Source: a virus
Virus record (IMG/VR): IMGVR_UViG_3300033149_002577
Length of the DNA: 62,207 nucleotides
Reading direction: 5' to 3' (one strand)
This document shows positions 18,101 to 52,787 of this stretch, piece after piece. Below the pieces are notes generated by a model, which did no database searches, was not told the origin of the DNA, and saw nothing but the letters and a program-made list of their open reading frames with translations. The first letter of the stretch is position 1. Each line of letters begins with the position of its first letter. The position numbers and the translations under genes are program-made.

Positions 18101-20495
18101 AATCGGCGAAGCAGGTGCTTCGGTCGGCGTATCAGACGGGACCTCGACGGCCGACGCTATAGGTGAATCAACAGCCGTTTCAGTGGCAACGTCGGACGGA
18201 ACTTCAACCTCGGTCGCAATTGGCGAATCCACGGCCGCTTCAGTAGCAACTTCCGTCGGTACTTCTACGGCGTTAGCAATCGGCACTTCGGTCGGCGTTT
18301 CAGTCGGCACATCTGATGGAACTTCGACATCGATCGCCGTTGGAGAGTCTGAAAGCGACGCTGTCGGGACATCGGCCGGGACCTCAACATCCGTCGCAGT
18401 GGGCGAATCTACAGCGGTGTCCGATGGCGTATCAGACGGAACCTCGACAGTGACGGCTATATCGGCAACGACTGGCGTTGGCGTATCAGACGGTACGTCA
18501 ACAGCCGTTGCAATCGGTGAGGCAACAGCAACAACGGTCGGAACCTCTGACGGCGTATCAACCTCAATAGCTGTCGGTGAGGCATCAGCAACGGCCGTCG
18601 GCGTCAGCGATGGAACTTCAACAGCAACGGCAATCGGTGCAGCATCAGTCGGCGTATCCGATGGAACGTCTACAGCGACCGCTGTAGGCGAGTCATCCGT
18701 CGATTCGGTAGGGCTCTCAGATGGGACGTCAACGTCTACAGCGATCGGTGCGTCAACGGCTGTTTCGGTGGCAACGTCAACTGGAACATCGACATCGACA
18801 GCAATCGGAGAATCTTCGGCGCTTTCAGCGGGCTCTTCGGTTGGTACGTCAACATCGCTTGCAACCGGAGAATCGACCGCAGTTTCAGTCGGTGCATCTG
18901 ATGGCACCTCGACATCCACGGCAGTCGGCGAGTCAACAGCGGCATCAGCAGGCACATCAGTTGGCACCTCAACGTCGCTCGCAGTCGCTTCGTCAACCGG
19001 CTCTGTCGGAGTATCCAACGGTACTTCAACGGTGTTCGGAGCCAACTTCACGCCCTATGAGCCGGTCGGTAGTCCTCAGTTCTGGGGTACTCAGCGCGTC
19101 GATTTCAACAATGTTCTGAACTACGACTACGACGAGGCCTTCTCTTTCTCCACCTGGGTAAAGGGCTCCGTCGACTACGACCAAGAAGGTATGGTAATCG
19201 GGAAATACAACTATTCCGATCGCGGCTATCAACTCCGGTTCAACAATGACACCGGGCTGATCACCATCCTGATCTCTTCAAGTTCCGGGAATAGAATTGA
19301 TGTCGAATACACCGCGTCTGGCATCGCGAATGATAACGGCTGGCATCATATAGCGTTTGCTTATGACGGCTCAGAGGCGGCTTCAGGCGTTACCCTATGG
19401 GTCGATGGTAGTTCTGTGAGTCTCTCGACAAACACGGATACACTTAGCGCGACGATCGTTCATTCGGACGACTTGCTTATAGGGATGCACCCCGGTGATT
19501 CTTACGGGTTCGTGGGCCGTGTTTGCAACACCGCTTCGTGGAGTTCAGAGATCACCGACGACGATGTAACGCTCCTCTACACTCACTCCGCGTCTGCCGA
19601 TGACGTTGACGCGTCCAGTCTAGAGGCATGGTGGCACTTGGACGAATATGACGCCGCTTACCCGACGTTCACCGACGAGAGCAGCAATGGCTACGACGGC
19701 ACGCTCTCGTCGTCTCACGACGGGCTTATCACCACGGACGCCCCTGGATTGAGTTACGTAGCAGACCACGCGATGGCTTTTACTGCCGAGGAGCAATCAG
19801 TTAAAACTAGCGACCGATTTGATTTGGGCGAAACCGACGAGATCTCTGTGTCGATTTGGTTCCGAACGGCGCGCACTGTCTCCGGCGAACAAATGATTTT
19901 GTCAAAAGGTCAGTATGACTCCGACGCTGGATATTATTTTTATCTCGTGGTCGATGAAACCAACGATACGCTCTACGTTGAAGTCCAGGCCAATGGATCG
20001 ACCACGGTACGAAAAGCCTATGCTCAGGCTTCAGTCGGGACCTGGTCTGATGACGACTGGCATCATTTGGTCGCGACCTATGCGCCAGATAGCGACACAG
20101 AATTTACGGCAACCATCTACGTCGACGGAAGCTCAGAAAGCGTCACCGAAGAGGAGAACGACTCGTTCTCGGGTGCCAGTTACGGCAACGGCGATGGGTT
20201 CACCGTCGGTGCGAGTGACACTGGACCGTCGTATGAAAATACGTTTGGTGGAGAACTTTGTGAAATGCAATGGTGGCTTGAGGATTCAGGTGTATTGACC
20301 TCTGGAGACGCGACCGCCCTCTATAATAGCGGCGTCCCTCACGATAACCTTTACACAACCCTAGGTATTCCGACCATGTGGTACAGACTTGGCTCACAAG
20401 ATGTATTTTTCTACGTTTACAGCAGAGGATATGCCACCGATGACGCCTATATGGTGAGTATGTCATCTGGTAACATAGTGGAGGTGAGTTTTTAA
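15183..20495 (+). CDS. Giant fibre or decoration protein: N-terminal domain, then roughly 50 copies of a 20-aa G/S/T/A repeat, then 2 LamG-like lectin domains
   Basis: 1770-aa ORF with a GTG start. Repeat unit is like GTSTATAIGASSAFTVGDSD. The C-terminus carries two LamG-type signatures (AFSFSTWVK..GYQLRF..WHHIAFAYDG..LWVDG and ISVSIWFR..WHHLVATY..IYVDG). Confidence 0.8.
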   Translation: MATERQPPDAVLASTNYSTLNVGDIDEDPDSPDGSWGAWDGRGDTICGTSFGTPTGTPNEGAELQEFRVLARKTASGTVDPTYSLELWEDGGQVSVLATGTLTDSDLDPGTVIGGLWDATSLGTADGSLVECYFIQTNGGDGGSTRRGIEVGAVEWNVDYSAAATPGAGESDGTSEALATGASTAVAPGISAGTSTSEATGEATAESVGADADGTSASLATGEAILNAVGSSDGTSTTLGTGLSTAAADGDAPGTSEALATGESTVESDGLAEGTSTATAIGASSAFTVGDSDGTSTATSVGLAVTMGEGLSDGTSTADAVGAATADADGSSVGTSTATATGEATSEAEGSITGLSTSGATGTSEADAVGSSDGTSTADATGLAVTLGAGSSDGTSTATAQGVSTADAAGTSSGTSTSNAVGASTSTTVGTSTGASTALAVASLEGSVGVSDGTSTATATGLSTADSTGASTGTSTASATGLSVSDSVGTSTGTSTATAAGLSVVIGTGSSAGTSTSLATGLSQAESDGTSTGTSTSLATGVALNEAVGASVGTSTAAAIASAFGSVGFSAGTSIAAAFITAIVSSVGFSAGASTVVAEGVSDVASEGLSDGAAIVAGVGDSTVAPYRLWPPADIEIDASLAEIEIVAAVASTVPKNAELASMPISIEASITDIVSIEASISSFTQTILLSNGASIGDSISIAIGESYAETVGVSDGTSTVTAVVATSEGVGVSDGTSTVAATGASLFVATGTSAGTSTATAFTSSEGVGVSDGTSTALAVGTGIFVSEGSSVGTSTSLAVGASAVVSVGVSTGTSTSVATGGSTFVSVGTSDGVSTSIAVGASSAASLGSSIGTSTSLAIGESSAVSVGASAGASAVTAEAGYSGISIGTSTATAIGLSSVASVGVSDGTSTATAIATASEGVGVSDGTSTATAIGVSTAVSEGISDGASTAVSIGESTAVSAGISNGTSTAIGEAGASVGVSDGTSTADAIGESTAVSVATSDGTSTSVAIGESTAASVATSVGTSTALAIGTSVGVSVGTSDGTSTSIAVGESESDAVGTSAGTSTSVAVGESTAVSDGVSDGTSTVTAISATTGVGVSDGTSTAVAIGEATATTVGTSDGVSTSIAVGEASATAVGVSDGTSTATAIGAASVGVSDGTSTATAVGESSVDSVGLSDGTSTSTAIGASTAVSVATSTGTSTSTAIGESSALSAGSSVGTSTSLATGESTAVSVGASDGTSTSTAVGESTAASAGTSVGTSTSLAVASSTGSVGVSNGTSTVFGANFTPYEPVGSPQFWGTQRVDFNNVLNYDYDEAFSFSTWVKGSVDYDQEGMVIGKYNYSDRGYQLRFNNDTGLITILISSSSGNRIDVEYTASGIANDNGWHHIAFAYDGSEAASGVTLWVDGSSVSLSTNTDTLSATIVHSDDLLIGMHPGDSYGFVGRVCNTASWSSEITDDDVTLLYTHSASADDVDASSLEAWWHLDEYDAAYPTFTDESSNGYDGTLSSSHDGLITTDAPGLSYVADHAMAFTAEEQSVKTSDRFDLGETDEISVSIWFRTARTVSGEQMILSKGQYDSDAGYYFYLVVDETNDTLYVEVQANGSTTVRKAYAQASVGTWSDDDWHHLVATYAPDSDTEFTATIYVDGSSESVTEEENDSFSGASYGNGDGFTVGASDTGPSYENTFGGELCEMQWWLEDSGVLTSGDATALYNSGVPHDNLYTTLGIPTMWYRLGSQDVFFYVYSRGYATDDAYMVSMSSGNIVEVSF
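15680..19040 (+). repeat. Degenerate 60-nt (20-aa) tandem repeat region inside the giant CDS
   Basis: The GTST motif recurs every 20 aa. The region is interrupted at ~17050-17290 by a unique segment. The stop-poor repeats create long spurious antisense ORFs. Confidence 0.85.
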
Positions 20496-28580: not shown

Positions 28581-29249
28581 ATGACTATAAAACTAGAGAC
28601 TGGATTGGTTCTCGGGAAACTCACGATCACAGAAGACCTTCAGCGCAGAAGTCGCCATGGCGATAGGGTCTGGAGTGCAATCTGTGAATGCGGAATCATC
28701 ATAGAGGATACGGCATGCCACTTAAGAAAAAGAACATCATGTGGCTCACATATATGCAGAAAAATCAGAAGTGACACAAATGGCGGCTATGCACCAAACG
28801 ATGCAAGCAAGAGGATTCCTGAATATGGAATTTGGAGACTAATAAAACAGCGCTGTTGCAACAAAAACAATCCCGCGTTCGCTGATTATGGTGGTCGTGG
28901 GATATTCGTTTGTGATGAATGGATTCACAATTTCAAAGCTTTCATCGATGACATGGGAAGAAGACCAACGAAAGACCACCAAATAGAAAGAATCGATAAT
29001 TATGGACCGTATTCAAAACAAAACTGCAAATGGGCTACTCGTTTCGAGCAAGGATGTAACAAGCGAAATAATATATGGATGGAATGCAATGGAAAACGAC
29101 TGATTTTGGCCGAATGGTCAAGACAAACAGGGTTGCCTGAGAAAATGCTTCAGAATAGAAAGAGGGCTGGATGGTCTGATAATCGAGCATTGACTACGAT
29201 ACCAAAATCTGATCATCGTCGAAAAAAAATCATTTTGAATTTGCCGTAA
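28581..29249 (+). CDS. Free-standing homing-endonuclease-like / AP2-type DNA-binding protein
   Basis: Motif YGIWRLIKQRCCNKNNPAFADYGGRGIFVCDEW..F..FIDDMGRRP...IERIDNYGPYSKQNCKWATRFEQ.CNKRNN recurs in phage HNH/AP2-associated genes. The gene is visibly AT-richer than its neighbours. Confidence 0.5.
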   Translation: MTIKLETGLVLGKLTITEDLQRRSRHGDRVWSAICECGIIIEDTACHLRKRTSCGSHICRKIRSDTNGGYAPNDASKRIPEYGIWRLIKQRCCNKNNPAFADYGGRGIFVCDEWIHNFKAFIDDMGRRPTKDHQIERIDNYGPYSKQNCKWATRFEQGCNKRNNIWMECNGKRLILAEWSRQTGLPEKMLQNRKRAGWSDNRALTTIPKSDHRRKKIILNLP

Positions 29250-29306
29250 TTCTTGTCTTTTCTAGTCTTGTCGAATCGGTCCCTGTAAGTTCATGTCTAG
29301 TCCTGC

Positions 29307-29344
29307 TTGGTGCCCTACGATCACGAAAGCAACCGCAGGGCTTC
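29307..29344 (-). ncRNA. Hairpin element A1 (13-bp stem, tetraloop)
   Basis: 29312-29324 pairs with 29329-29341 around GAAA (29325-29328). Four A-C/C-A positions become G-U wobbles in the minus sense. Confidence 0.65.
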
Positions 29345-29453
29345 TTTTCTCATCCCGTCGTGTCGAATCCTGTCGAGTCGCATCTTGTCCAGTCCCGTCT
29401 CGTCCCGTTAAATCGTGTCTGGTCCGGCCCCATCGCATCTCGTCTAATCATGC

Positions 29454-29488
29454 TTGGCACCCCACCGCAACGAAAGCCACGGGGCATC
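29454..29488 (-). ncRNA. Hairpin element A2 (degenerate copy)
   Basis: Same TTGGCAC...CGAAAG...GGGGC layout, but the lower stem is weaker. Confidence 0.45.
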
Positions 29489-29558
29489 GGGTCTTGTCTC
29501 GTCCAGTCACGTCGCGTCACGCCTGGTCTCGTCCGGTCTTGTCAGGTCCCGTCAAGCC

Positions 29559-29598
29559 TGGCACCCCTGAACCCCGAAAGAGGTCTAAGGGTATCGAG
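29559..29598 (-). ncRNA. Hairpin element A3
   Basis: 29563-29575 pairs with 29580-29592 around GAAA. Three C-A/A-C positions and one G-T position. Confidence 0.55.
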
Positions 29599-29670
29599 TC
29601 TTTTCTTGTCCCGTCTCATCACGTCGTGTCTCGTCCGGTCCCGTCACGTCCCGTCACGTCTCGTCAGGTA

Positions 29671-29708
29671 TTGGAGCCCAACCAAAGTTTCACGTTTGGC
29701 CGGGCCTC
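29671..29708 (-). ncRNA. Hairpin element A4 (type II loop)
   Basis: GCCC-aa-CCAAA ... TTTGG-cc-GGGC with loop GTTTCACG. The flanks TTGGAGCCC / GGGCCTCTTGTC are shared with type I. Confidence 0.55.
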
Positions 29709-29785
29709 TTGTCGCGTCTTGTCCGGTCTTGTCAGATCCTGTCACGTCTAATCAAGTCCGATCTCGGCTCGTCCGTTCATGTAAA

Positions 29786-30325
29786 TCATGAAAGTAGCAG
29801 CCACTCAGCGAGCAACCCTTTATCAGCGGACTCCCCCTTGTCCGCAAGTTTTTGAATCGTTTTCGGCTTCGACGCCGCTTGAATTAGATGTGCATGAACC
29901 GCCAGAGAATTCGCCCGTGATCGTTCACCGGTGGAGAGCTCGCTCATGTCAGCGCTTGCAACCACGACGCTCGCAGTCTTCGCCCTTCGGCCGGCCCTGC
30001 ATATCTCGGCCTCTGTCCTCTCAAGTCGCTCTCTGGCGTCGAGGCACTTGATACGGCCTTCTTTCCTAACCCGTTGCCAGAGCACTAGATGCTTCCTCAA
30101 AACGTGCTTGATGGCCGAGTTGAGCATTCCGTACCCCTGGCCGCTCGGGTCGACCTTTTGAAGATCCCCTGGCCAGTCCTCATCGACAATGAAGTCGCCA
30201 GGTGTCCCGACCTCGAGGACGCGGATAAACCGCGAAGTCTTCGGCCCGGAATTCCCGTAGACCGGGCCTTCGTAACCATCCTCTGAAATCTCATTTAGTC
30301 TTTCGACTACTTCCTCTTGGCTCAT
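29786..30325 (-). CDS. Orphan protein P179 (179 aa), embedded between arrays A and B
   Basis: ATG preceded by AGAAAGGAAAGAAA. Acidic N-terminal half and an Arg/Lys-rich helical C-terminal half (RKHLVLWQRVRKEGRIKCLDARERLERTEAEICRAGRRAK). No family recognised. Confidence 0.7.
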   Translation of the reverse strand: MSQEEVVERLNEISEDGYEGPVYGNSGPKTSRFIRVLEVGTPGDFIVDEDWPGDLQKVDPSGQGYGMLNSAIKHVLRKHLVLWQRVRKEGRIKCLDARERLERTEAEICRAGRRAKTASVVVASADMSELSTGERSRANSLAVHAHLIQAASKPKTIQKLADKGESADKGLLAEWLLLS

Positions 30326-30413
30326 TTTCTTTCCTTTCTAGGCAAATGATTTTCGTGTCGGGTCAGTTCTAATCGTGTCCTGTCAAGTCAGGTCTTGTCA
30401 TGTCGTGTCGCGT

Positions 30414-30451
30414 TTGGTGCTCCCTGCGACCGAAAGATCACGGGGAGCTTC
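30414..30451 (-). ncRNA. Hairpin element B1
   Basis: 30419-30431 pairs with 30436-30448 around GAAA. The stem sequence differs from B3 and C1 but pairing is retained (covariation). Confidence 0.65.
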
Positions 30452-30519
30452 TTGTCTCGCCGGGTCCGGTTTCGTCGTGTCGAATCATGTCGCATCGTGT
30501 CTCGTCGGGTCATGTCGAT

Positions 30520-30558
30520 TTCGGAGCCCGACCAAGTTTTCAAGCTTGACCGGGCCTC
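30520..30558 (-). ncRNA. Hairpin element B2 (type II loop)
   Basis: GCCCG-ac-CAAG ... CTTG-ac-CGGGC. There is a compensatory change relative to A4 (CCAAA/TTTGG versus CCAAG/CTTGa). Confidence 0.55.
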
Positions 30559-30632
30559 TTGTCTCGTCTTGTCGGGTCCGGTCTTGTCGCGTCTCGTCTC
30601 GTCCGGTCGCGTCTTGTCATGTCGCATCGTGC

Positions 30633-30670
30633 TTGGAGCCCACGGCCACCGAAAGGCAACCGTGGGCCTC
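30633..30670 (-). ncRNA. Hairpin element B3
   Basis: GCCCACGG (30638-30645) pairs with CCGTGGGC (30660-30667). The three inner C-A/C-A/A-C positions all become G-U in the minus sense, giving an uninterrupted 13-bp helix. Confidence 0.75.
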
Positions 30671-30749
30671 TTGTCTTGTCGTGTCTCGTCCTGTCGAGTC
30701 ACGTCTTGTCAAGTCCTGTCGCGCCGGGTCGTGCCGTGTCGCGTCCATG

Positions 30750-31376
30750 TTATTCAATGATCTCAAATTTAAAGTTCTCAACCCGGAAGATCCCATGATC
30801 GCCGCCATTGGTCCCGGGCCTATTACAGCCGATTCCGACTTGGTAGCCGGCAGTTTCCAGGGTTTCGCTGATCATCTCAGGGTGCTCGATGATATCGGCA
30901 TCGACGACCATGAACCCGATCGCGATATTCCACGGCGGATCGATCTCAGGGAAACATCGAGGCACCCTCTTTGAGCCGCCTCTTGTCCCGTCGCTTGGTA
31001 CGGAAATCGTTCGACCGATCACGTCATCGATATGAACCGGCTCAAGCTTCTTACTTTCATCGTTGATGGCGTAGACCAACGTTTCCGGCGCTGTCGGGTC
31101 GGTCATGATCCCGCTCTTGAATCGTGCGGTGAAAGTCGACCTGTTCTTACCGGGGACCTTGTCGTTTCGGAGCTTCGAGGCCTGCTCCATGCCGAGCTTG
31201 AAGGCGATCGGCGGAACCAAAACCAGGTCGTCTTTGTTGATGTGACACCGTTCTCGCCAGCACCTCTTATCCTGCGCCTCTGCCGATTCCTTTCCCTTTC
31301 GCGGGCTCTGAAACATGCGCCCGAATGTCAGTGTGGTTAGTCCGATAATGTCCGCGCTAAAGATTCCTCTTCTCAT
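30750..31376 (-). CDS. Orphan protein P208 (208 aa), embedded between arrays B and C
   Basis: ATG preceded by CGAAAGGAAAGAGCAAG. Coding-like composition. The C-terminal region contains VVDADIIEHPE and NGGDHGIFRV. No family recognised. Confidence 0.7.
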   Translation of the reverse strand: MRRGIFSADIIGLTTLTFGRMFQSPRKGKESAEAQDKRCWRERCHINKDDLVLVPPIAFKLGMEQASKLRNDKVPGKNRSTFTARFKSGIMTDPTAPETLVYAINDESKKLEPVHIDDVIGRTISVPSDGTRGGSKRVPRCFPEIDPPWNIAIGFMVVDADIIEHPEMISETLETAGYQVGIGCNRPGTNGGDHGIFRVENFKFEIIE

Positions 31377-31461
31377 CTTGCTCTTTCCTTTCGTTAGTTA
31401 AAAAACTTCAATTCGCGTCCTGTCAGATCCGGTGCCGTCCTGTCACGTCTAGTCGGGTCAG

Positions 31462-31500
31462 TTTGGAGCCCACAACCACCGAAAGATAGCTGTGGGCCTC
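31462..31500 (-). ncRNA. Hairpin element C1
   Basis: 31468-31480 pairs with 31485-31497 around GAAA. Three A-C/C-A positions become G-U in the minus sense. Confidence 0.75.
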
Positions 31501-31587
31501 GTGTCGTGTCGCGTCACGTCCGGTCGGTCCGAATCTGATCTTGTCAAGTCACGTCGGGTCCTGTCAGGTCCCGTCTGGTCCCGTCTG

Positions 31588-31627
31588 GTTTGGAGCCCTC
31601 GCCGACCGAAAGATCAGCGGAGGCCTC
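31588..31627 (-). ncRNA. Hairpin element C2
   Basis: 31595-31607 pairs with 31612-31624 around GAAA. Three C-A positions and one T-G position. Confidence 0.65.
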
Positions 31628-31723
31628 TTGTCTTGTCGTGTCTCGTCCTGTCTCGTCGTGTCTCGTCACGTCGATTCTTTCCAAAAATGGTGGCCCTCAG
31701 CGGTCAACTTCGAGGTTGTTGGC

Positions 31724-31788
31724 TGCGACACCGTCCCGCTTCGGACCATAAAAATGTTGTTTTGTCTCCTCTTAGTTTCCGGTGTCGC
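31724..31788 (-). promoter_or_regulatory. 9-bp inverted repeat at the predicted 5' end of the cassette transcript
   Basis: GCGACACCG (31724-31732) and CGGTGTCGC (31780-31788), separated by 47 nt, lie immediately downstream of the leftward -10. Confidence 0.4.
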
Positions 31789-31795
31789 AATTCTG

Positions 31796-31824
31796 ACTAT
31801 ACGCGTTGACGCGTACCGTAGCAA
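31796..31824 (-). promoter_or_regulatory. Leftward promoter of the cassette: TTGCTA-17-TATAGT with the perfect operator palindrome (31800-31815) in the spacer
   Basis: Minus-strand -35 is the reverse complement of 31819-31824. The -10 is the reverse complement of 31796-31801. The 16-bp TACGCGTTGACGCGTA occupies the spacer. Confidence 0.6.
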
Positions 31825-31836
31825 GCTTTTTTTTCG

Positions 31837-31848
31837 CTGTGATATCCT
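31837..31848 (+). promoter_or_regulatory. Extended -10 box CTGTGATATCCT, 6 nt upstream of ATG 31855
   Basis: The identical 12-mer with identical spacing occurs before terS (59424-59435). TGaTATCCT fits the TGnTATAAT class. No SD. Confidence 0.5.
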
Positions 31849-31854
31849 CCAACC

Positions 31855-32919
31855 ATGAGCGAACCTCTTTCCATCGTCGAAACCACAGGGTCCGAACGCG
31901 GCGTTGAGCTAAACAATAGAGCCCTTCCTTTTAAGGGCGTTTCCTTCGCGGGCGAACAGCGATCCGAGAAGACAAACTACCCCGGAAATCCAGTCTCAAC
32001 GCTTCAGGTCCTCGGACCAAATGAACTCCCGACTGAAATGCAGGGCCGATGGAAAGATCAATTTCTTTACGGGATGGTTACGCTCACAGGCTGGGATGCA
32101 ATCGTCTCCGATGGTGAGCACCCGTCGGCCGAGCAGCTCGTAAAAATCTTCCATATCCTTCGCCGATCCGGGAACCTGCTCGAGGTGCGGTGGGGGCCGG
32201 AGATTCGCCGTGGCATCCTGAAACGGTTCGATCCTATCTATGACCGTGTCGACGCTGTTCGCTGGAATATGACCTTCGAGTGGACCCAATTCGGGACCGC
32301 TCAAGCGAGCCAATTCACCGGCGTTCAGCCGACGGAATCGATGTCGGCCGAACTCGCTGCAACCCTCGCCGCGCTCAACGACCTCACCTCGGGCATGCCT
32401 CAGATTATGTACCCGACCTTCGCCGATGACCTGCTCGAGCTTCAAGGCCTGATCATGGTCGCCGCCATCGCCCTCATGGAAGCCAACGCGGAAGTTCAGG
32501 GCACCCCGGAGGTTACTCAAGATGAATTCCAAGGCGTCGCTTCAAGAGCGGCCGACGTCGTTGCAAGCTGCGAGGTCATGCGGCAAGCGTTGGACGTCCC
32601 TGGAACCGAACTCGTGCCTACTGACGACGTCTCAAGCGTGCTCGCTGGCAGCACCTGGTCGAAGGACACGATGAAAGCCCTCGTCGAACTCGCTGTGGCC
32701 GCTGTGAGGACTCGCGAAATGATCAGGAACAGAACGGTTTCAGAATACCTTGCCGACATTAGGCTAAGAGAGAGTCAAACACTCCGAGACGTCTCCAGAG
32801 AATACTACGGCGCCGCTGACGACTGGACGATCATTGCCAACGCTAACGGGCTCATCGGCAGCATCCACGACGCCGGAACCCGTATCCTTGTTCCTCGGCA
32901 ATCATGGAGCACCTCTTGA
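31855..32919 (+). CDS. Tail/baseplate protein with a C-terminal LysM domain (gpX / DNA-circulation-like position)
   Basis: C-terminus YYGAADDWTIIANANGLIGSIHDAGTRILVP fits LysM. First gene of the baseplate block. Confidence 0.55.
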   Translation: MSEPLSIVETTGSERGVELNNRALPFKGVSFAGEQRSEKTNYPGNPVSTLQVLGPNELPTEMQGRWKDQFLYGMVTLTGWDAIVSDGEHPSAEQLVKIFHILRRSGNLLEVRWGPEIRRGILKRFDPIYDRVDAVRWNMTFEWTQFGTAQASQFTGVQPTESMSAELAATLAALNDLTSGMPQIMYPTFADDLLELQGLIMVAAIALMEANAEVQGTPEVTQDEFQGVASRAADVVASCEVMRQALDVPGTELVPTDDVSSVLAGSTWSKDTMKALVELAVAAVRTREMIRNRTVSEYLADIRLRESQTLRDVSREYYGAADDWTIIANANGLIGSIHDAGTRILVPRQSWSTS

Positions 32920-37301: not shown

Positions 37302-40300
37302 GTGGCCAAACTATCACAAGATGATCTCCTAGATGTTCTCCGGGCTTCCGCCGACGACGCCTATATCGAGCCTCTTGAAACCGTCGACGATGGAGCCGGA
37401 TTTGACCTCCATCGCGCCATCGCGGCGATATTTGCTCGAGCATCAGAGGCCGTCGATACCAACACGCAGGCGATGTATCTCTACCCTCACTCGGAGCAGA
37501 CGTCGGCGCCGGCAGGTGGCGGTGTTCAAGCTTCAGGAAACCTGCTGATCGTCAGAACAGCACCCACCGATGGCGAGATCATTCTGACTGAAGGCGAGCT
37601 CCTCGTCGTGCTTCTCACGACTCTTGATGCCGAGATAATCGTCGAGGCCGAACTCGAGGTCGCTACCAGCACCACGTTTTCTGCGGGCGTCGGTGGGCCT
37701 CTAAGCGTTCCAGTCCGTGCGGTTCGAGTCGGATACCACGGAAATCTACCGACCTCAGAGAGCCGATACGCCATCGCTAAACAGCTCACGACGATGACGT
37801 TGACCGGCATGACCTCGACGATCGCGAACTACGTCACCGACACCGGGCTCAACGACACTTTTGAAGAGGCCTCGGTAGGTGCTTGGCTGCGGTTCACTTC
37901 CGGCCCCAACGTCGGGACAGGCCCGAGGCTCATCCTCTCTTTCGATGCCTCAACCTCGACGGTGATCGTTGACGGCTCGGCCCTCGTGGCCAGCGTTGTC
38001 AACGACGGCGAGATCGTGGATTTGAGCACCATCGGTTTTGCTCCGGTGATCGACAGCGAGCTCTCAAGCGGCGTTTCCCCCATGCTCGACATGCTCGGCG
38101 CCGGCCGTGACATGGGCCGAGAGCCAACCGAAACTGACGACGAGTATCGTGAGCGCCTTCGATACCTCCCTGACATTGTCTCCCCCAACGCGCTCTATCG
38201 GGCCGCCTCCCGTATCCTGACGCCGTTGAGCATCAGGTTCCGCCTGCTTGAAGCTCGAAGCACTGACGATTTTACCGGCGGCGCCTGGGACGTCATGGCC
38301 TACGATGACCCAGCATTTTACAACTGGGTTCTCGGTCGTCAAAACTTCTTCCAAGGCGACGCCTTTGAATATCGCGGTTTCTACCTCGTGATCGAACGTC
38401 AATGGTACGGCGACTTCGGAGCCCCGTTCGACTCATGGCCAGCGGCATCGCCTAATCATCCGTCGAATGCCTGGGATTGGATGGCCTATGACGGCTATCC
38501 CCTTGGTTTCGCGAACGACCTGGACAGAACCATCGTCGAAGTTGAAAAAGCCCGCATGGGCGGCGTCCCTTGGCTCTTGGTCCTCGCTGCGTCATTTGGC
38601 AGTTACGGTGCCTCAGCCGGCTCATCGACAGTATTGGCGTTATCGCCCGTTTCTTCGTTCGGCGCCTCAGCCGGCACCTCAACCGTCATCGCTGTGGGAG
38701 AATCAACATCTGAGGCCGATGGCATATCAGATGGAACCTCCACATCCACCGCCGTCGGGGAGTCGACATTCGAAGCTGCCGGATTATCTGATGGTATTTC
38801 GACGGTTACTGGCATTGCCACTTCGGTGGCCGTGGGTGCGTCAGACGGCACCTCGACAGCAATCGCCGAATCTGCATTCATAATGTCGAAATCTATCGAC
38901 GTATGGGAAAGCTCAAGAATCGATTTCGACAACAATCTCGGCTTTGATTATGACGAAGCCTTCTCGTTTTCTTTCTGGTTTCGTCCAAAAACTGAACGAG
39001 GAAGCGGTCTTCGTGAATTGCTTGAGAAATGGGACAGCGGATCAACTCGCGGATACCAACTGAACTGGGACCAGGGAACAGGAAACGTTCAATTCCTCTT
39101 GAGCAACGGGCCAAGCAACCAGATCGATGTTGACTTCACCGACGCCGCGCTTGGAAATTCAGATTCTTGGCACCATATCGCGGTCTCTTATGATGGCTCA
39201 GAGGCGGCCTCCGGCATCAGTATTTACATTGACAACTCATCAAGATCACTCGCGACAAACGCAGATACCTTGAGCGCAACGACTTTGAACACCGAAGATC
39301 TCGCGTTTTCAAATGTCTTGTCAGGATGCGTCGGTCGATTCTGCAACGGTGCTTTTTGGTCAAAGGAAATTAGCTCGGTCGAGGTGACATCGCTTTACAA
39401 CAGTGCCCTGCCAACATCAATCTCCGACAATGAGTCATGGTGGAAACTCGGCGAGGGCGACGCACCCGGTTCCATCCTCGACTCAAGCGGAAATGGGATA
39501 ACAGGGACAGGCGGCGGCCATGATGGCCTCTTCGTCGACGATTGCCCAGGTTACGATTATTCAAATTCTCACGGTCTCAGATTCGATGGAAACGCCTATG
39601 TCGACATAGGCGATCATTTCGACCTGGCAAGTTCATCGGCCGATTTCTCTGGCTCTATTTGGTTCAAGACAACGACGAAAACCTCAACACGTATGACGTT
39701 CTTCTCAAAAGCAGAAGACGCTGATCCGGAGCAAGTATCTTACACGGCACACATGTACACATTCGGTGGGTATGATTATTTCAGGGTTGCTTTACATGCT
39801 GATATATATGACAGAGTTGGGCGATATCGAGCGCCAGAGGGAACATACACAGATGGGCAATGGCATCATTTCGCATGCTCGTATGAGAACGAATCATATA
39901 CTGAGTTTACTGTTCGCATGTTCCTCGATGGCCAAGAGGTAACGGTCGCAGAAGACCAAAATGACAGCTTTGAATTTGTGTATTATGGGAACACTAGCCC
40001 ATTGCTTATTGGCGCAATTGATGAAGAATCTTCGATAAGCGAATATTTCTACGGCGAACTCAAAGAATTCTATTTTATTATGAGCAACGTAGCCGCCAAT
40101 AACTTGACCCTTGCCAACGCACGAAAATATTACGGTCACGGAATACCACCTGAAAATGTCTATCCTGGAATGAGCCCCCATCTCTACTTCCGCCTCGGGA
40201 CGGGAGACACCTACGACGAGGCAACCACGCGCGGTCGGGCATACGACTACGACGGCACCATGAACGGAATGTCCGACACCGACCTCCTCGACGACGCCAT

Positions 40301-41726
40301 TACGAAGCAGACGATCGGGTGGTCCTCAGTCTTCGACGGGACGGATGATTGCATCACAATGGGGGATGTTCTCGATAAAGAACTCGCTGATCCCATCTCG
40401 ATTTTAGCGTGGATGAAATTAAGCGGTGGCGGGACAGCAAAGGTAATTCTAGGCAAAACCATTGCAGGAGAACAGGGTTATCAATTTGGTTATCATTCTG
40501 GCAATCAATTTATAGGAAAACTAAAGGGAGCGACTGGACAGATATACGTGCGGTGGCTGATTACTCTTGATTCAAACTGGCATCATGCCTGTTTTGCGTA
40601 TGATGGATCTGGAAATGCCAGTGGATGTGCTTGTTATTGCGACGGTGTGCTTCTTTCAATGGATACGATTGTTGATACATTAGCAGGCACAATGGCGACA
40701 TCCGGACCATTTATGATTGGTGGTCTTCAAAGCTCTTCGACCCCAAATAGTCCGTTCAACGGGAATCTTGCGTATGTTGGTCTGTTTGAAAGAGAACTTA
40801 CACAGGCCGAGGTTTTCGAGGCAATCTTTACGCCGAATCTAAACGCCCATTCGCAGGAATCAGACCTCGAGGGCTTCTGGAAATGCGGACAAGAAGACGA
40901 CCACCCGACGGTTATTGACTATGGTTCAGGCGGTAATAACGGCACCATGACCAACATGGTCGCCGGGGATATCGTCAACGAATTCCCGAAAGCTCCCTGG
41001 CTTGACACCTCATCGGCCCTTGACGGAACGAACGACACCATCACGATGGGCGATGTGCTCGACAGGCTTCACACTGAAGCTTTCTCGATTTCCGCATGGT
41101 TCAAAACCGATTCAGCATCAGTGCTTCAAGGGATCGTGGCGAAGAGATCGACGGCCGGGGACACCCCAGGATATGCGATGAACTGGGACGGGGCGAACAG
41201 TCGATTCGACGTCTACCTTGTGAGCACGGCCTCAAACCTCATACATGCAACGTTCGCCGATACAATAGATACCGCCTGGCACCACGTCGTGATGACCTAT
41301 AACGGAGGCTATGACATTACCGATGTTCTCCTTTATGTCGACGGGGTTTCGTTGACGCGAGCCACCCAATCGAACGCGCTCTCGGCAACGATGGCCAACT
41401 CGGCACCGTTGCTGATCAGCGGGGAAAACAGTTCGTCCTCACCGACGAATCCCTTCGACGGCAATGTCTGCGGAATTGATATCTTCGATGACGATCTCTC
41501 GCAGGATCAAGTTGACGAACTCTTCGGTGTTGGGATGCCTCGAGACACCAGAATCCACACCGAGACTTTGGCCGGCAACCAGGACGGTAAATGGAACTGC
41601 GGCACAGATGATACCTACGATGAGACCACGGACCGCTCAACAGGCGGAAGCGATGGAACGTTGACGAATATGGCGGAAGAAGACTTCGAGCTTTACGATG
41701 CGCCTCTAGCGTTTGGAGATTTATAA
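37302..41726 (+). CDS. Tail fibre / receptor-binding protein: N-terminal baseplate-attachment region, ~5 G/S/T/A 20-aa repeats, 4 LamG-like domains
   Basis: 1474-aa ORF with a GTG start. Four LamG-type signatures (FSFSFWFR..WHHIAVSYDG, FSGSIWFK..WHHFACSY, ISILAWMK..WHHACFAYDG, FSISAWFK..WHHVVMTYNG). Confidence 0.75.
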   Translation: MAKLSQDDLLDVLRASADDAYIEPLETVDDGAGFDLHRAIAAIFARASEAVDTNTQAMYLYPHSEQTSAPAGGGVQASGNLLIVRTAPTDGEIILTEGELLVVLLTTLDAEIIVEAELEVATSTTFSAGVGGPLSVPVRAVRVGYHGNLPTSESRYAIAKQLTTMTLTGMTSTIANYVTDTGLNDTFEEASVGAWLRFTSGPNVGTGPRLILSFDASTSTVIVDGSALVASVVNDGEIVDLSTIGFAPVIDSELSSGVSPMLDMLGAGRDMGREPTETDDEYRERLRYLPDIVSPNALYRAASRILTPLSIRFRLLEARSTDDFTGGAWDVMAYDDPAFYNWVLGRQNFFQGDAFEYRGFYLVIERQWYGDFGAPFDSWPAASPNHPSNAWDWMAYDGYPLGFANDLDRTIVEVEKARMGGVPWLLVLAASFGSYGASAGSSTVLALSPVSSFGASAGTSTVIAVGESTSEADGISDGTSTSTAVGESTFEAAGLSDGISTVTGIATSVAVGASDGTSTAIAESAFIMSKSIDVWESSRIDFDNNLGFDYDEAFSFSFWFRPKTERGSGLRELLEKWDSGSTRGYQLNWDQGTGNVQFLLSNGPSNQIDVDFTDAALGNSDSWHHIAVSYDGSEAASGISIYIDNSSRSLATNADTLSATTLNTEDLAFSNVLSGCVGRFCNGAFWSKEISSVEVTSLYNSALPTSISDNESWWKLGEGDAPGSILDSSGNGITGTGGGHDGLFVDDCPGYDYSNSHGLRFDGNAYVDIGDHFDLASSSADFSGSIWFKTTTKTSTRMTFFSKAEDADPEQVSYTAHMYTFGGYDYFRVALHADIYDRVGRYRAPEGTYTDGQWHHFACSYENESYTEFTVRMFLDGQEVTVAEDQNDSFEFVYYGNTSPLLIGAIDEESSISEYFYGELKEFYFIMSNVAANNLTLANARKYYGHGIPPENVYPGMSPHLYFRLGTGDTYDEATTRGRAYDYDGTMNGMSDTDLLDDAITKQTIGWSSVFDGTDDCITMGDVLDKELADPISILAWMKLSGGGTAKVILGKTIAGEQGYQFGYHSGNQFIGKLKGATGQIYVRWLITLDSNWHHACFAYDGSGNASGCACYCDGVLLSMDTIVDTLAGTMATSGPFMIGGLQSSSTPNSPFNGNLAYVGLFERELTQAEVFEAIFTPNLNAHSQESDLEGFWKCGQEDDHPTVIDYGSGGNNGTMTNMVAGDIVNEFPKAPWLDTSSALDGTNDTITMGDVLDRLHTEAFSISAWFKTDSASVLQGIVAKRSTAGDTPGYAMNWDGANSRFDVYLVSTASNLIHATFADTIDTAWHHVVMTYNGGYDITDVLLYVDGVSLTRATQSNALSATMANSAPLLISGENSSSSPTNPFDGNVCGIDIFDDDLSQDQVDELFGVGMPRDTRIHTETLAGNQDGKWNCGTDDTYDETTDRSTGGSDGTLTNMAEEDFELYDAPLAFGDL
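38598..38880 (+). repeat. Short copy of the 20-aa GTST repeat array, inside the tail-fibre gene
   Basis: ASAGTSTVIAVGESTSEADGISDGTSTSTAVGESTFEAAGLSDGISTV... is homologous to the 15680-19040 repeats and is followed by the same LamG junction (DFDNNLGFDYDEAFSFSFW versus DFNNVLNYDYDEAFSFSTW). Confidence 0.8.
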
Positions 41727-49544: not shown

Positions 49545-49574
49545 ACCATACGCGTCAACGCGTACAGAAATCAA
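49545..49574 (-). promoter_or_regulatory. Leftward early promoter TTGATT-18-TATGGT with the perfect operator palindrome (49549-49564)
   Basis: -35 is the reverse complement of 49569-49574. -10 is the reverse complement of 49545-49550. TACGCGTCAACGCGTA lies in the spacer. Confidence 0.55.
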
Positions 49575-50352: not shown

Positions 50353-50380
50353 TTGCCCTGTACGCGTCAAAGCGTATACC
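50353..50380 (+). promoter_or_regulatory. Rightward early promoter TTGCCC-16-TATACC with an operator copy (50361-50376)
   Basis: TACGCGTCAAAGCGTA matches the consensus at 15 of 16 positions. The -10 begins at the terminal TA of the palindrome, as at the other sites. Confidence 0.5.
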
Positions 50381-52530: not shown

Positions 52531-52787
52531 TGGGCAGCAAAAGCAGAATGAACAGTCGGCGACGAAGCTATCGAAATCAGCAGATGGAGCGCCTAAGAGA
52601 TAACCTTGCCGAGTCATGGTGGATCATCGGTGCCATGCTTCAGCAGGCCGGAGGAAAGGCGGTGCTTGATCCGAAAGCGTTCGATTTGAAGGACGGGGAG
52701 CCCGAGATTAAAAGCCGAATCGAGGCCGACGGAATCATTCATTTAAGCTTGATAGGGTCCGCGTCAACGCGTACAATTGAGGAGTAA
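52530..52787 (+). CDS. Hypothetical protein (85 aa)
   Basis: ATG 52530 overlaps the upstream stop (TAATGG). Confidence 0.45.
   Translation: MGSKSRMNSRRRSYRNQQMERLRDNLAESWWIIGAMLQQAGGKAVLDPKAFDLKDGEPEIKSRIEADGIIHLSLIGSASTRTIEE
52749..52777 (+). promoter_or_regulatory. Promoter TTGATA-17-TACAAT with an operator copy (52758-52773) in the spacer
   Basis: Near-consensus sigma70 hexamers with an exact 17-nt spacer. TCCGCGTCAACGCGTA matches the consensus at 15 of 16 positions. Confidence 0.65.

What the first reader, a model, noticed from the sequence alone, without database searches (positions are those of the whole stretch)
29250..31830. Antisense, early-promoter-driven cassette: two orphan genes interleaved with nine [hairpin + phased pentamer tract] units
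The + strand tail operon is interrupted between the tape measure / homing-endonuclease-like gene and the LysM/baseplate genes by ~2.6 kb organised on the opposite strand. Read in the minus sense, the order is:
- Promoter TTGCTA-17-TATAGT (31824-31796) with the phage operator palindrome in its spacer.
- A ~100-nt leader with a 9-bp inverted repeat.
- Array C (2 units), then RBS GAAAGGAAAG and the 208-aa gene.
- Array B (3 units), then an RBS and the 179-aa gene.
- Array A (4 units).

About half of the cassette is non-coding repeat. Each unit is 105-146 nt and consists of a covarying hairpin (13-bp stem with a tetraloop in most copies) and conserved flanks (+ sense: TTGGAGCCC ... GGGCCTCTTGTC), followed by 45-75 nt of GTCNN pentamers in strict register.

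I cannot place this in any class I know. It is not CRISPR, because the spacers are low-complexity and the repeats diverge. It does not look like REP/RAYT, retron, nut/put or terminator elements. The closest logic is a type III toxin-antitoxin locus (a repeat-RNA array beside a protein gene) or an RNA decoy or sponge, but neither protein resembles ToxN/AbiQ as far as I can tell.
Basis: partly seen in the sequence, partly recalled or inferred. Interest (0 to 1): 0.95.

Follow-up and report, generated by a model that had tools for sequence, protein, structure and literature searches.

The report
A phage VIPR guide-RNA locus
This 2.6-kb stretch is a VIPR system, a phage weapon first described in 2026 in which a small CRISPR-like protein coats guide RNAs made of five-base repeats to find and silence rival DNA; this copy keeps GAC in each repeat where the studied systems keep GGY.

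Summary
Window 29250-31830 holds two minus-strand genes interleaved with nine units of a phased pentamer tract plus a covarying hairpin. These tracts occur nowhere else in the 62-kb phage contig.

It is not an unknown class. [quoted passage not shown]
- **P208:** a single-domain RAMP. Its model matches Csm3/Cas7, and its family profile matches the SUSP1-type Vipr (hhalign 95.9%, E 5.6e-9).
- **P179:** the conserved accessory neighbour (vap-like), found next to vipr in 70 of 103 related loci.
- **The units:** each is a vrRNA read on the minus strand, with 10-22 NNGAC pentamers followed by a 3' hairpin tail. G is 98% and A is 96% conserved, the third base is C or T in 91%, and NN uses all 16 dinucleotides.

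By homology, P208 should polymerise one protomer per pentamer. The NN pairs would then read double-stranded DNA, skipping every third base, and silence a competing mobile element.

What differs from the studied systems is the fixed triplet (GAY, not GGY), a plain hairpin-NCCA tail, and one promoter for the whole cassette. I found no targets.

The type III toxin-antitoxin, sponge and "orphan gene" readings were not.

The parts
31796..31824 (-). Promoter-like site TTGCTA-17-TATAGT that would drive the whole cassette
   Evidence: Consensus scan, 9 of 12 matches. The module AAGCTTG..ACGCGTCAACGCGT..-10 recurs at three sites in the 49.5-52.8 kb early region. Transcription has not been tested.
31801..31814 (.). 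14-bp palindrome ACGCGT-NN-ACGCGT in the promoter spacer (putative operator)
   Evidence: There is a second exact copy at 49550-49563, and one-mismatch copies at 50362-50375 and 52759-52772. Each sits in the same promoter-like context.
31675..31795 (-). Leader of about 120 nt with a 9-bp inverted repeat (31780-31788 / 31725-31733)
   Evidence: String search and RNAfold. Function unknown.
31590..31674 (-). vrRNA 1: 10 NNGAC pentamers (31625-31674) plus hairpin-NCCA tail (31590-31625)
   Evidence: Register parse; covariance-model hit at 60.6 bits.
31463..31587 (-). vrRNA 2: 18 pentamers plus hairpin tail (31463-31498)
   Evidence: 61.5 bits.
31407..31461 (-). Pentamer tract with no tail (11 units), just upstream of the vipr RBS
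   Evidence: Its role is unexplained.
30750..31376 (-). vipr homologue (P208): a single-RRM RAMP with a glycine-rich loop
   Evidence: AlphaFold2 pLDDT 90.6. Foldseek matches Csm3/Cas7 at probability 1.0, E about 1e-6. The family profile matches the PDB chain 36pp_D 'SUSP1 Vipr protein' at E 2.9e-5. hhalign against the Felixounavirus Vipr gives 95.9%, E 5.6e-9.
30633..30747 (-). vrRNA 3: 16 pentamers plus hairpin tail (30633-30668)
   Evidence: 66.7 bits.
30521..30630 (-). vrRNA 4: 15 pentamers plus hairpin tail with a larger loop (30521-30556)
   Evidence: 53.2 bits.
30414..30518 (-). vrRNA 5: 14 pentamers plus hairpin tail (30414-30449)
   Evidence: 58.6 bits.
30352..30411 (-). Pentamer tract with no tail (12 units), just upstream of the P179 RBS
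   Evidence: Its role is unexplained.
29786..30325 (-). vap-like accessory gene (P179)
   Evidence: 48% identical to the gene downstream of the vipr homologue in L001, and 29% identical to the one in L003. An HMM of the family finds a relative adjacent to vipr in 70 of 103 loci. The AlphaFold2 model has pLDDT 77 and only weak winged-helix-like matches, best E 0.028.
29671..29780 (-). vrRNA 6: 15 pentamers plus hairpin tail with a larger loop (29671-29706)
   Evidence: 50.7 bits.
29558..29667 (-). vrRNA 7: 15 pentamers plus hairpin tail (29558-29593)
   Evidence: 53.9 bits.
29454..29555 (-). vrRNA 8: 14 pentamers plus hairpin tail (29454-29486)
   Evidence: 52.9 bits.
29307..29451 (-). vrRNA 9: 22 pentamers plus hairpin tail (29307-29342)
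   Evidence: 55.7 bits.
29250..29304 (-). Degenerate trailing pentamer tract that abuts the stop codon of the convergent HNH endonuclease gene (28581-29249, + strand)

Best explanation
The cassette is a VIPR (Viral Interference Programmable Repeat) system carried by a tailed phage.

**Proposed mechanism, inferred from the published systems**
1. One early-type promoter (31824-31796, minus strand) gives a single transcript. It carries vrRNAs 1-2, vipr (P208), vrRNAs 3-5, the accessory gene (P179) and vrRNAs 6-9.
2. The transcript is cut after each hairpin-NCCA tail. This yields nine guides of 85-145 nt.
3. P208, a roughly 23-kDa single-domain RAMP, polymerises along each guide, one protomer per pentamer. 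It holds the constant GAY triplet and presents the two variable bases.
4. The 10-22 NN pairs read a double-stranded DNA target in which every third base is skipped (NNxNNx...). This forms an R-loop that blocks transcription of a competing phage, satellite or prophage.
5. P179 assists, probably as a DNA-binding protein.

**Shown here:** the homology and fold of P208, the repeat grammar, the covarying 3' hairpin, the strand, and the conserved vipr-vap-array association.

**Inferred from the SUSP1 and P. fulva work:** filament formation, the 1-nt-skip reading, silencing, and the anti-rival role.
For: **P208 is a Vipr-type RAMP**
- The family profile matches PDB 36pp_D 'SUSP1 Vipr protein' at E 2.9e-5.
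- hhalign against the identical-type Vipr of Felixounavirus Alf5 gives 95.9%, E 5.6e-9, over 154 columns.
- The AlphaFold2 model (pLDDT 90.6) matches Csm3/Cas7 backbone subunits of type III-A and type VII effectors at probability 1.0, E about 1e-6. It also matches viral RAMP-like proteins.

**Repeat grammar**
- Of 162 pentamers, position 3 is G in 98%, position 4 is A in 96%, and position 5 is C in 78% and T in 12%. Positions 1-2 use all 16 dinucleotides.
- This is the fixed-triplet/NN grammar of vrRNAs, with tracts of 10-22 units against the published 9-16.

**3' tail**
- Every tract runs in register into a conserved junction and a 13-bp hairpin.
- Twelve of 13 pairs covary across three loci.

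**Strand**
- Read in the gene sense, the stems hold 36 G.U cells against 7 A.C cells. Pairing is 90% in that sense and 76% in the antisense.
- In L005 the last tail is followed by TTTT.

**Conserved module**
- Homologues at 49-64% identity in L001, L003 and L005 carry the same vipr-vap pair, flanked by GAC-phased tracts in the gene sense. This holds despite GC contents of 56-69%.
- Nearly all of about 100 more distant Vipr loci also have 5-nt-phased tracts on the gene strand.

**Locus type and setting**
- It is a minimal two-gene locus with long flanking non-coding regions inside a phage that has portal, tape-measure and baseplate genes. This matches the published description.

**Reference check**
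- The Felixounavirus locus L120 shows the same layout with NNGGY tracts.
Against: - There are no expression, processing or binding data for this locus.
- No target was found. [quoted passage not shown] All eight seeds, from guides 2-9, run against IMG/VR or JGI metagenomes gave only chance-level extensions.
- The fixed triplet is GAY. In SUSP1 a GGY>GAY change was among the substitutions that abolished silencing. The published alternative repeats (NNNGG, YNNNG, NNNNG) do not describe GAC.
- The residues that hold G2 and G1 in SUSP1 (R138, W178, D177) are F142, N185 and C184 in P208.
- P179 shows no significant similarity to the SUSP1-type vap1 (hhalign probability 2.8%). Its fold assignment is weak.
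- The tail is a plain hairpin, not the pseudoknot of the SUSP1 clade.
- Three tracts have no tail.
Confidence: 0.88

Rival explanations
1. It is VIPR-related by descent but works by a different rule. For example, it might target RNA rather than DNA, use a different skip length, or act as a cis-regulator. In the last case P208 would coat the tail-less tracts just upstream of the two ribosome-binding sites and control its own operon.
For: - The fixed triplet and the residues at the G1/G2 contact positions differ from SUSP1.
- No 1-nt-skip target was found.
- Two tail-less tracts end 15-25 nt before the vipr and vap RBS.
- The published complex can also pair with ssRNA.
Against: - In L003 the tail hairpin, not a tract, directly precedes the vipr RBS. 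The tail-less leader tract is therefore not conserved.
- NN hypervariability across nine guides is what a programmable targeting code predicts.
- The failed target search is weak evidence. It needed exact seeds of 9-10 units, and no relative of this phage is in the collections.
Confidence: 0.08
2. The arrays would be a type III toxin-antitoxin-like antitoxin RNA, or an RNA decoy or sponge that titrates a host or rival RNA-binding protein. That could include a decoy for another element's Vipr.
For: - A repeat-RNA array lies beside small protein genes.
- The arrays make up about half of the cassette.
- The preprint notes that some VIPR systems target other VIPR systems, so conflict between such elements exists.
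Against: - P208 has a RAMP fold homologous to Vipr, not a ToxN/AbiQ endoribonuclease fold.
- Neither protein has a PADLOC hit.
- The units vary in length and in their NN content. A processed antitoxin or a sponge would be expected to have a fixed repeat.
- The same grammar accompanies vipr genes across about 100 loci.
Confidence: 0.02
3. The repeats act as DNA rather than RNA. They could be iterons, a partition or packaging site, or a single-strand initiation zone. From my own knowledge, 5'-GTC-3' is the phage T7 primase recognition triplet, and d(GCGAAAGC) forms very stable DNA hairpins on the + strand.
For: - On the + strand the tracts read NNGTC, and 7 of 9 hairpin loops read CGAAAG.
- A 5-nt repeat of fixed triplets could in principle seat a DNA-binding oligomer.
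Against: - The stems hold 36 G.U pairs against 7 A.C when read as minus-strand RNA. Double-stranded or + strand DNA function would not select for this.
- Tract orientation always follows the vipr gene in relatives.
- The adjacent protein is a homologue of an RNA-binding RAMP with solved vrRNA complexes.
- There is no GC-skew or composition break typical of an origin.
Confidence: 0.01

Closest known systems
VIPR systems, especially type II of Escherichia phage SUSP1 / Felixounavirus and the Pseudomonas fulva prophage (bioRxiv 10.64898/2026.04.26.720920 and 10.64898/2026.04.26.720927)
   Same: - A small single-RRM RAMP (Vipr) plus one accessory gene in a phage.
- Flanking non-coding RNAs built of tandem pentamers, each with a fixed triplet and two hypervariable bases, followed by a conserved structured 3' tail.
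- vrRNAs both upstream and downstream of the genes.
- P208 is detectably homologous to the SUSP1-type Vipr.
   Different: - The fixed triplet is GAY, not GGY.
- Tracts reach 22 units, against the published 9-16.
- The tail is a 13-bp hairpin followed by NCCA, not a pseudoknot.
- Guides abut one another under one promoter and also lie between vipr and vap. In the Felixounavirus locus each guide has its own conserved leader.
- The SUSP1 G1 and G2 contact residues are replaced.
- The accessory protein is not recognisably vap1.
- P208 is only about 23% identical to the Felixounavirus Vipr over the aligned part.
Class 1 CRISPR backbone subunits (Csm3/Cas7 of type III-A and type VII effectors)
   Same: P208's predicted fold matches them best among solved structures in the Foldseek library, which runs to April 2026. 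Both are built on an RRM core, a thumb and a glycine-rich loop, and both polymerise along a guide RNA.
   Different: - There is no CRISPR repeat-spacer array, and none of the cassette or neighbouring window proteins I scanned matched a Cas family.
- The guide is a periodic 5-nt code rather than a contiguous spacer.
- P208 is a single small protein rather than one subunit of a multi-subunit effector.
Type III toxin-antitoxin loci (ToxIN, CptIN, TenpIN)
   Same: A tandem non-coding RNA repeat array lies next to a small protein gene, often on phages or plasmids.
   Different: - ToxI-type repeats are identical units of about 34-45 nt, cut by the toxin itself.
- Here the units are 85-145 nt with variable content.
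- The protein is a RAMP, not a ToxN/AbiQ fold.
TRAP (trp RNA-binding attenuation protein) and its 11 (G/U)AG-NN repeats
   Same: In both, a protein oligomer reads a fixed triplet every five nucleotides of RNA and ignores the two spacer bases. This resemblance comes from my own knowledge and was my first lead.
   Different: - TRAP is a closed 11-mer beta-wheel that regulates its own operon, and its spacers carry no information.
- P208 has a different fold.
- In VIPR, the spacer bases are the information.

Membership tests
VIPR | A Vipr protein: a small (about 20 kDa) single-RRM RAMP with a G-loop and thumb, homologous to published Viprs | tested here: met
   - P208 is 208 aa.
- The AlphaFold2 model has pLDDT 90.6.
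- Foldseek gives probability 1.0 to Csm3/Cas7.
- The profile hits the 'SUSP1 Vipr protein' at E 2.9e-5.
- hhalign gives 95.9%, E 5.6e-9, to the Felixounavirus Vipr.
- The glycine-rich loop GIGCNRPGTNGGDHG aligns with the SUSP1 G-loop GVGDWRP.
VIPR | vrRNAs: tandem pentamers with a conserved triplet alternating with hypervariable NN (published as GGY/NN 'or a related consensus', 9-16 repeats) | tested here: met
   - The grammar is met: G 98%, A 96%, C or T 91%, and NN uses all 16 dinucleotides over 162 pentamers. There are nine tracts of 10-22 units in strict register.
- The triplet itself is GAY, not GGY. The text of the preprint does not list GAC among its alternatives. I could not see its figure S17.
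VIPR | A conserved structured 3' tail capping each repeat tract | tested here: met
   A 13-bp hairpin follows every one of the nine tracts. It is 90% paired, and 12 of 13 pairs covary. It is a hairpin, not the SUSP1-clade pseudoknot. Three further tracts have no tail.
VIPR | A minimal locus of vipr plus one accessory gene (vap), with no CRISPR array or cas operon, typically in a virus or provirus | tested here: met
   - It is a two-gene cassette inside a phage contig with portal, tape-measure, HNH and baseplate genes.
- A P179 relative is adjacent to vipr in 70 of 103 loci.
- Rfam has no hit in the window.
- Whether P179 equals one of the published vap1-6 is inconclusive.
VIPR | vrRNAs are expressed, processed to about 100 nt and co-purify with Vipr | not testable with these tools
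   Only indirect support is available. G.U outnumbers A.C by 36 to 7 in the stems when read in the gene sense. There is a promoter-like site upstream.
VIPR | NN dinucleotides specify a dsDNA target with a 1-nt skip, and natural targets lie in rival mobile elements | tested here: inconclusive
   - There is no match above background in the window or in the fetched loci. Skip lengths of 0, 1 and 2 nt score alike.
- Eight exact-seed scans of IMG/VR or JGI metagenomes gave only chance extensions.
CRISPR-Cas | An array of near-identical direct repeats (about 23-50 nt) separated by unique contiguous spacers, with cas1/cas2 or an effector operon | tested here: not met
   The repeats are 5-nt units plus diverging hairpins. 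The only Cas-like element is the RAMP fold of P208. No Cas family matched among the window proteins I scanned.
Type III toxin-antitoxin | A ToxN/AbiQ-family endoribonuclease toxin next to identical repeats of about 34-45 nt that it processes | tested here: not met
   Neither protein has a PADLOC or Pfam hit. P208 folds as a RAMP. Unit length varies from 85 to 145 nt.

The most novel reading that the evidence does not exclude
This clade is a natural re-coded VIPR. Its scaffold triplet has changed from GGY to GAY together with a remodelled G-loop pocket.

**Pocket evidence**
- Arg is lost at the P208-C184 position in 12 of 15 GAC-type loci. It is present in 31 of 31 GGY-type loci.
- N185 stands in place of the stacking Trp/Phe.
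- Such a change would make the system orthogonal to GGY systems. It would also reveal the residues that set scaffold specificity.

**Processing idea**
- The nine guides are released from one early transcript at tRNA-acceptor-like hairpin-NCCA tails, possibly by host tRNA-end-processing enzymes.
- The text of the VIPR preprints mentions neither feature.
Probability: 0.35. Interest if true: 0.6.

Novelty: new member of a known kind. Interest (0 to 1): 0.4.

Why it matters
VIPR was described only in 2026, and experimentally only for GGY-type guides from enterobacterial and Pseudomonas phages. This locus is an environmental phage member with an unusually large guide set: nine guides under one promoter.

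Its constant triplet carries an A where the studied protein requires a G. That makes it a natural experiment on how Vipr proteins recognise their scaffold, and a possible source of an orthogonal scaffold for multiplexed VIPR tools.

The comparison across about 60 loci suggests which G-loop and thumb residues co-vary with the triplet.

For annotation, the finding shows that a 5-nt-phased tract next to a roughly 200-aa RAMP gene is a reliable signature. Such a locus should be labelled VIPR rather than 'hypothetical protein plus repeats'.

Tried and rejected
**No hit**
- Rfam at gathering thresholds found nothing in the window.
- Pfam, PADLOC and NCBIfam found nothing for P208 or P179. PHROGs gave only weak hits to families of unknown function.
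- blastn and tblastn against cultured phages found no relatives of the region, of P208 or of P179.
- A word-indexed search with P179 alone found only itself. Its family emerged only from synteny.
- A search for relatives of the phage through its baseplate-region protein found none in IMG/VR. I therefore could not ask whether sister phages lack the cassette.
- The protein collection gave no accession numbers that would tie this family to the preprint's seed proteins.

**Ideas considered and dropped**
- A TRAP-like ring protein reading phased triplets.
- T7-primase GTC sites or ssDNA hairpins.
- A type III toxin-antitoxin.
- RNase-P-type processing at a tRNA-like minihelix. I kept this only as a side note.

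**Covariance model**
- The model of the tail finds this tail only in the close clade (window, L003, L005). It does not find it in about 80 more distant Vipr loci. The tail is therefore clade-specific.

**Target search**
- Self-targeting under the 1-nt-skip rule was negative. Skips of 0, 1 and 2 nt score the same.
- All eight seeds, from guides 2-9, were negative when run against IMG/VR or JGI metagenomes.
- The 15 hits for guide 5 are one conserved gene in a family of related contigs. They match only the nine 5' units and not the tail-proximal ones, so I judged them chance.

**P179 fold**
- No Foldseek hit was better than E 0.028.

Full report
**1.

Reading 29000-32100 shows three non-coding blocks made of GTCNN pentamers on the + strand. 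They are interrupted by GC-rich hairpins and separated by two minus-strand ORFs: 30750-31376 (208 aa) and 29786-30325 (179 aa).

- Windows with at least 6 of 8 GTC triplets in 5-nt phase number 70. All lie inside these blocks, none lies elsewhere in the 62,207-nt window, and none appears in 200 shuffles of the same bases.
- Tandem Repeats Finder and the repeat finder report the same period-5/10/15 structure.
- Read on the minus strand and anchored at each hairpin, the nine tracts are in unbroken register. They have 10, 18, 16, 15, 14, 15, 15, 14 and 22 pentamers.
- Over 162 pentamers, position 3 is G in 98%, position 4 is A in 96%, and position 5 is C in 78% and T in 12%. Positions 1-2 use all 16 dinucleotides.
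- The hairpin is a 13-bp stem, usually with a CUUUCG loop. In an alignment of the nine window copies with seven copies from two related loci, 90% of cells pair and 12 of 13 pairs change on both sides. No shuffle reaches the observed values, and sliding the partner by 1-3 columns drops pairing to 34-49%.
- A covariance model built from that alignment finds exactly nine copies in the window, all on the minus strand.

**2. Strand and unit polarity**

In the stems there are 36 G.U cells against 7 A.C cells when read as minus-strand RNA. Pairing is 90% in that sense and 76% in the other. In relatives the tracts always read GAC in the sense of the adjacent genes. In L005 the last hairpin is followed by TTTT.

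The functional molecule is therefore most likely minus-strand RNA. The tract-to-hairpin junction (..GACAAGAG|GCCC..) is conserved. The hairpin is followed by N-CC-A/G in 15 of 16 copies, and the next tract starts 1-3 nt later.

Three further tracts have no hairpin: 31407-31461, 30352-30411 and 29250-29304.

**3. The genes are not orphans**

- P208 has 19 metagenomic homologues in the word-indexed search. In the exhaustive representative search it has 1,834 clusters at E<=1e-3.
- P179 found only itself in the word-indexed search. However, the gene just downstream of the P208 homologues is its relative: 48% identity in L001 and 29% in L003.
- An HMM of that family finds a member adjacent to the P208-family gene in 70 of 103 loci.
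- The close relatives L001, L003 and L005 (49-64% identical P208, GC 56-69%) carry GAC-phased tracts and the same hairpin next to the pair. In L003 these lie upstream, between and downstream of the genes, exactly as here.

**4. Identification**

A profile of the P208 family hits one solved structure, 36pp chain D, named 'SUSP1 Vipr protein' (E 2.9e-5). That led to two 2026 bioRxiv preprints: 10.64898/2026.04.26.720920 and 10.64898/2026.04.26.720927.

- They are mostly phage-borne two-gene loci: vipr, a roughly 20-kDa ancestral RAMP, plus an accessory vap.
- The loci are flanked by vrRNAs of 9-16 pentamers, in which a fixed GGY alternates with hypervariable NN, followed by a structured 3' tail.
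- Vipr polymerises one protomer per pentamer and flips out GGY.
- The NN pairs read dsDNA with one base skipped per unit, forming an R-loop triplex that silences transcription.
- Natural targets are satellites and prophages.
- Seven types exist, with 'GGY/NN or a related consensus'.

Independent tests agree with this identification.
- The AlphaFold2 model of P208 (pLDDT 90.6) matches Csm3/Cas7 subunits at Foldseek probability 1.0. It also matches viral RAMP-like proteins.
- hhalign of the family against the Vipr of Felixounavirus Alf5 (the SUSP1 type, located) gives 95.9%, E 5.6e-9, over 154 columns.
- The Alf5 locus itself shows NNGGY tracts plus tails on both sides of vipr-vap1. This is the same plan as here.

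**5. How it most likely works**

This part is inferred by homology. A promoter-like site at 31824-31796 would give one transcript through the whole cassette, since no other promoter-like site lies inside it. Cutting at the hairpin-NCCA boundaries would release nine guides of 85-145 nt. P208 would coat each tract, hold GAY and expose NN. The 10-22 NN pairs would specify 29-65 bp of target DNA as NNxNNx. P179 has a weak winged-helix-like model followed by long helices and would assist at the DNA.

The promoter carries the palindrome ACGCGTCAACGCGT in its spacer. The same promoter-palindrome module occurs at 49550, 50362 and 52759, the last of these upstream of PDDEXK and ERF recombination genes.

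**6. What differs from the studied systems**

- **Fixed triplet.** It is GAY. In SUSP1, GGY>GAY was one of the substitutions that abolished silencing. The alternative repeats named in the preprint's methods (NNNGG, YNNNG, NNNNG) all keep the second G. I could not see the logos in its figure S17.
- **Contact residues.** In the alignments, the SUSP1 residues that hold G2 (R138, W178) and G1 (D177) correspond to F142, N185 and C184 in P208. R179, which holds the pyrimidine, is conserved as R186.
- **Triplet diversity.** Across about 60 non-redundant Vipr loci from IMG/VR and GTDB genomes, the fixed triplet on the gene strand varies: GGC in 29, GAC in 15, CGC in 6, GTT in 4, AGC or AGT in 4, GTC in 2, GGT in 2, CTC in 1.
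- **Residue-triplet covariation.** GAC loci lack Arg at the C184-equivalent position in 12 of 15 cases. GGY loci have it in 31 of 31 (Fisher 1e-8, without phylogenetic correction). CGC goes with Tyr at the F142 position in 5 of 6.
- **Implication.** GAC is therefore one of several natural codes, and it occurs in several Vipr clades. This is why I file the locus as a new member rather than a new kind.
- **Tail.** It is a plain hairpin, specific to the close clade, not a pseudoknot.
- **Accessory protein.** P179 is not recognisably vap1.

**7. Targets**

With the 1-nt-skip rule, no guide matches the window or any fetched locus above the level seen with 0- and 2-nt skips. All eight exact seeds of 9-10 units, from guides 2-9, returned only chance-level extensions when run against IMG/VR or JGI metagenomes. 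The 15 hits for guide 5 are one conserved gene in related contigs, and they do not match the tail-proximal units. The target therefore remains unknown. The phage has no close relative in the collections searched.

**8. Rivals**

- Type III toxin-antitoxin or sponge readings fail on the fold of P208, the lack of PADLOC hits and the variable units.
- A DNA-level role (iterons, primase sites) fails on the G.U excess, the gene-linked orientation and the homology to an RNA-binding RAMP.
- A VIPR relative that uses a different rule, or that regulates its own operon through the tail-less tracts, cannot be excluded. I give it about 8%.

**9. Verdict**

This is a real, well-formed VIPR locus: a new member of a kind described in 2026. 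It has a GAY scaffold, a hairpin-NCCA tail and nine guides. Confidence that it is a VIPR system is about 0.88. The mechanistic steps beyond RNA binding rest on the published SUSP1 and P. fulva work.

Noticed in passing
window 31796-31824(-), 49550-49563, 50362-50375, 52749-52777: Four copies of one promoter-operator module: AAGCTTG at the -35, then the palindrome ACGCGT-CA-ACGCGT running into the -10. One copy drives the VIPR cassette. Another precedes the PDDEXK nuclease and ERF recombinase genes. This suggests a single regulator controls early genes and VIPR together.
   Followed up: partly
about 60 Vipr loci among L001-L102, and window 30750-31376: The fixed triplet of the phased tracts differs between Vipr clades (GGC, GAC, CGC, GTT, AGC/AGT, GTC, GGT). 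It co-varies with residues at the P208 F142, C184 and N185 positions. Arg184 is absent in 12 of 15 GAC loci and present in 31 of 31 GGY loci. Tyr142 goes with CGC. Trp185 goes with AGY. There is no phylogenetic correction.
   Followed up: partly
window hairpin 3' flanks (e.g. 30633-30637, 31590-31594); L003 and L005 tails: Each tail hairpin is followed by N-CC-A/G in 15 of 16 copies. This looks like a tRNA acceptor stem with a discriminator base and CCA. It might recruit host tRNA-end enzymes for processing or protection. This is speculation.
   Followed up: no
window 31407-31461, 30352-30411, 29250-29304: Three pentamer tracts have no tail hairpin. Two of them end 15-25 nt before the RBS of vipr and of the accessory gene. 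They could be decayed guides or cis-binding sites for P208. This arrangement is not conserved in L003.
   Followed up: partly
window 28581-29249 (+): An HNH homing-endonuclease-like gene (phrog_374, E 3.8e-46) sits between the tape-measure gene and the VIPR cassette. It is convergent with the cassette. Together they interrupt the tail operon, which suggests a mobile insertion.
   Followed up: no
L005 2844-4424 and 6144-6200: In a relative, an IS200/IS605 tnpA-tnpB pair lies immediately upstream of vipr-vap. The last vrRNA tail there is followed by TTTT, like an intrinsic terminator.
   Followed up: no
window 29293-29791, 30375-30974, 31492-31858 (+ strand): Long + strand 'ORFs' of 105-199 aa run through the arrays only because GTCNN repeats contain no stop codons. 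Gene callers may annotate them as proteins.
   Followed up: yes
window 15183-20495 and 37302-41726 (+): Two very large structural-region proteins (1,770 and 1,474 aa) carry Laminin_G_3 / concanavalin-like lectin domains. They are probably fibre or receptor-binding proteins.
   Followed up: no
L122-L136 (IMG/VR contigs): The first nine units of guide 5, coded as NNx, match one conserved gene shared by 15 related viral contigs. The five tail-proximal units do not match. I judged this chance but did not examine it further.
   Followed up: partly
L001 7163-7354: The array downstream of the vipr-vap pair in L001 has long GAC tracts. It has no hairpin recognised by the covariance model, so tails may differ even within the close clade. 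The contig ends there.
   Followed up: no
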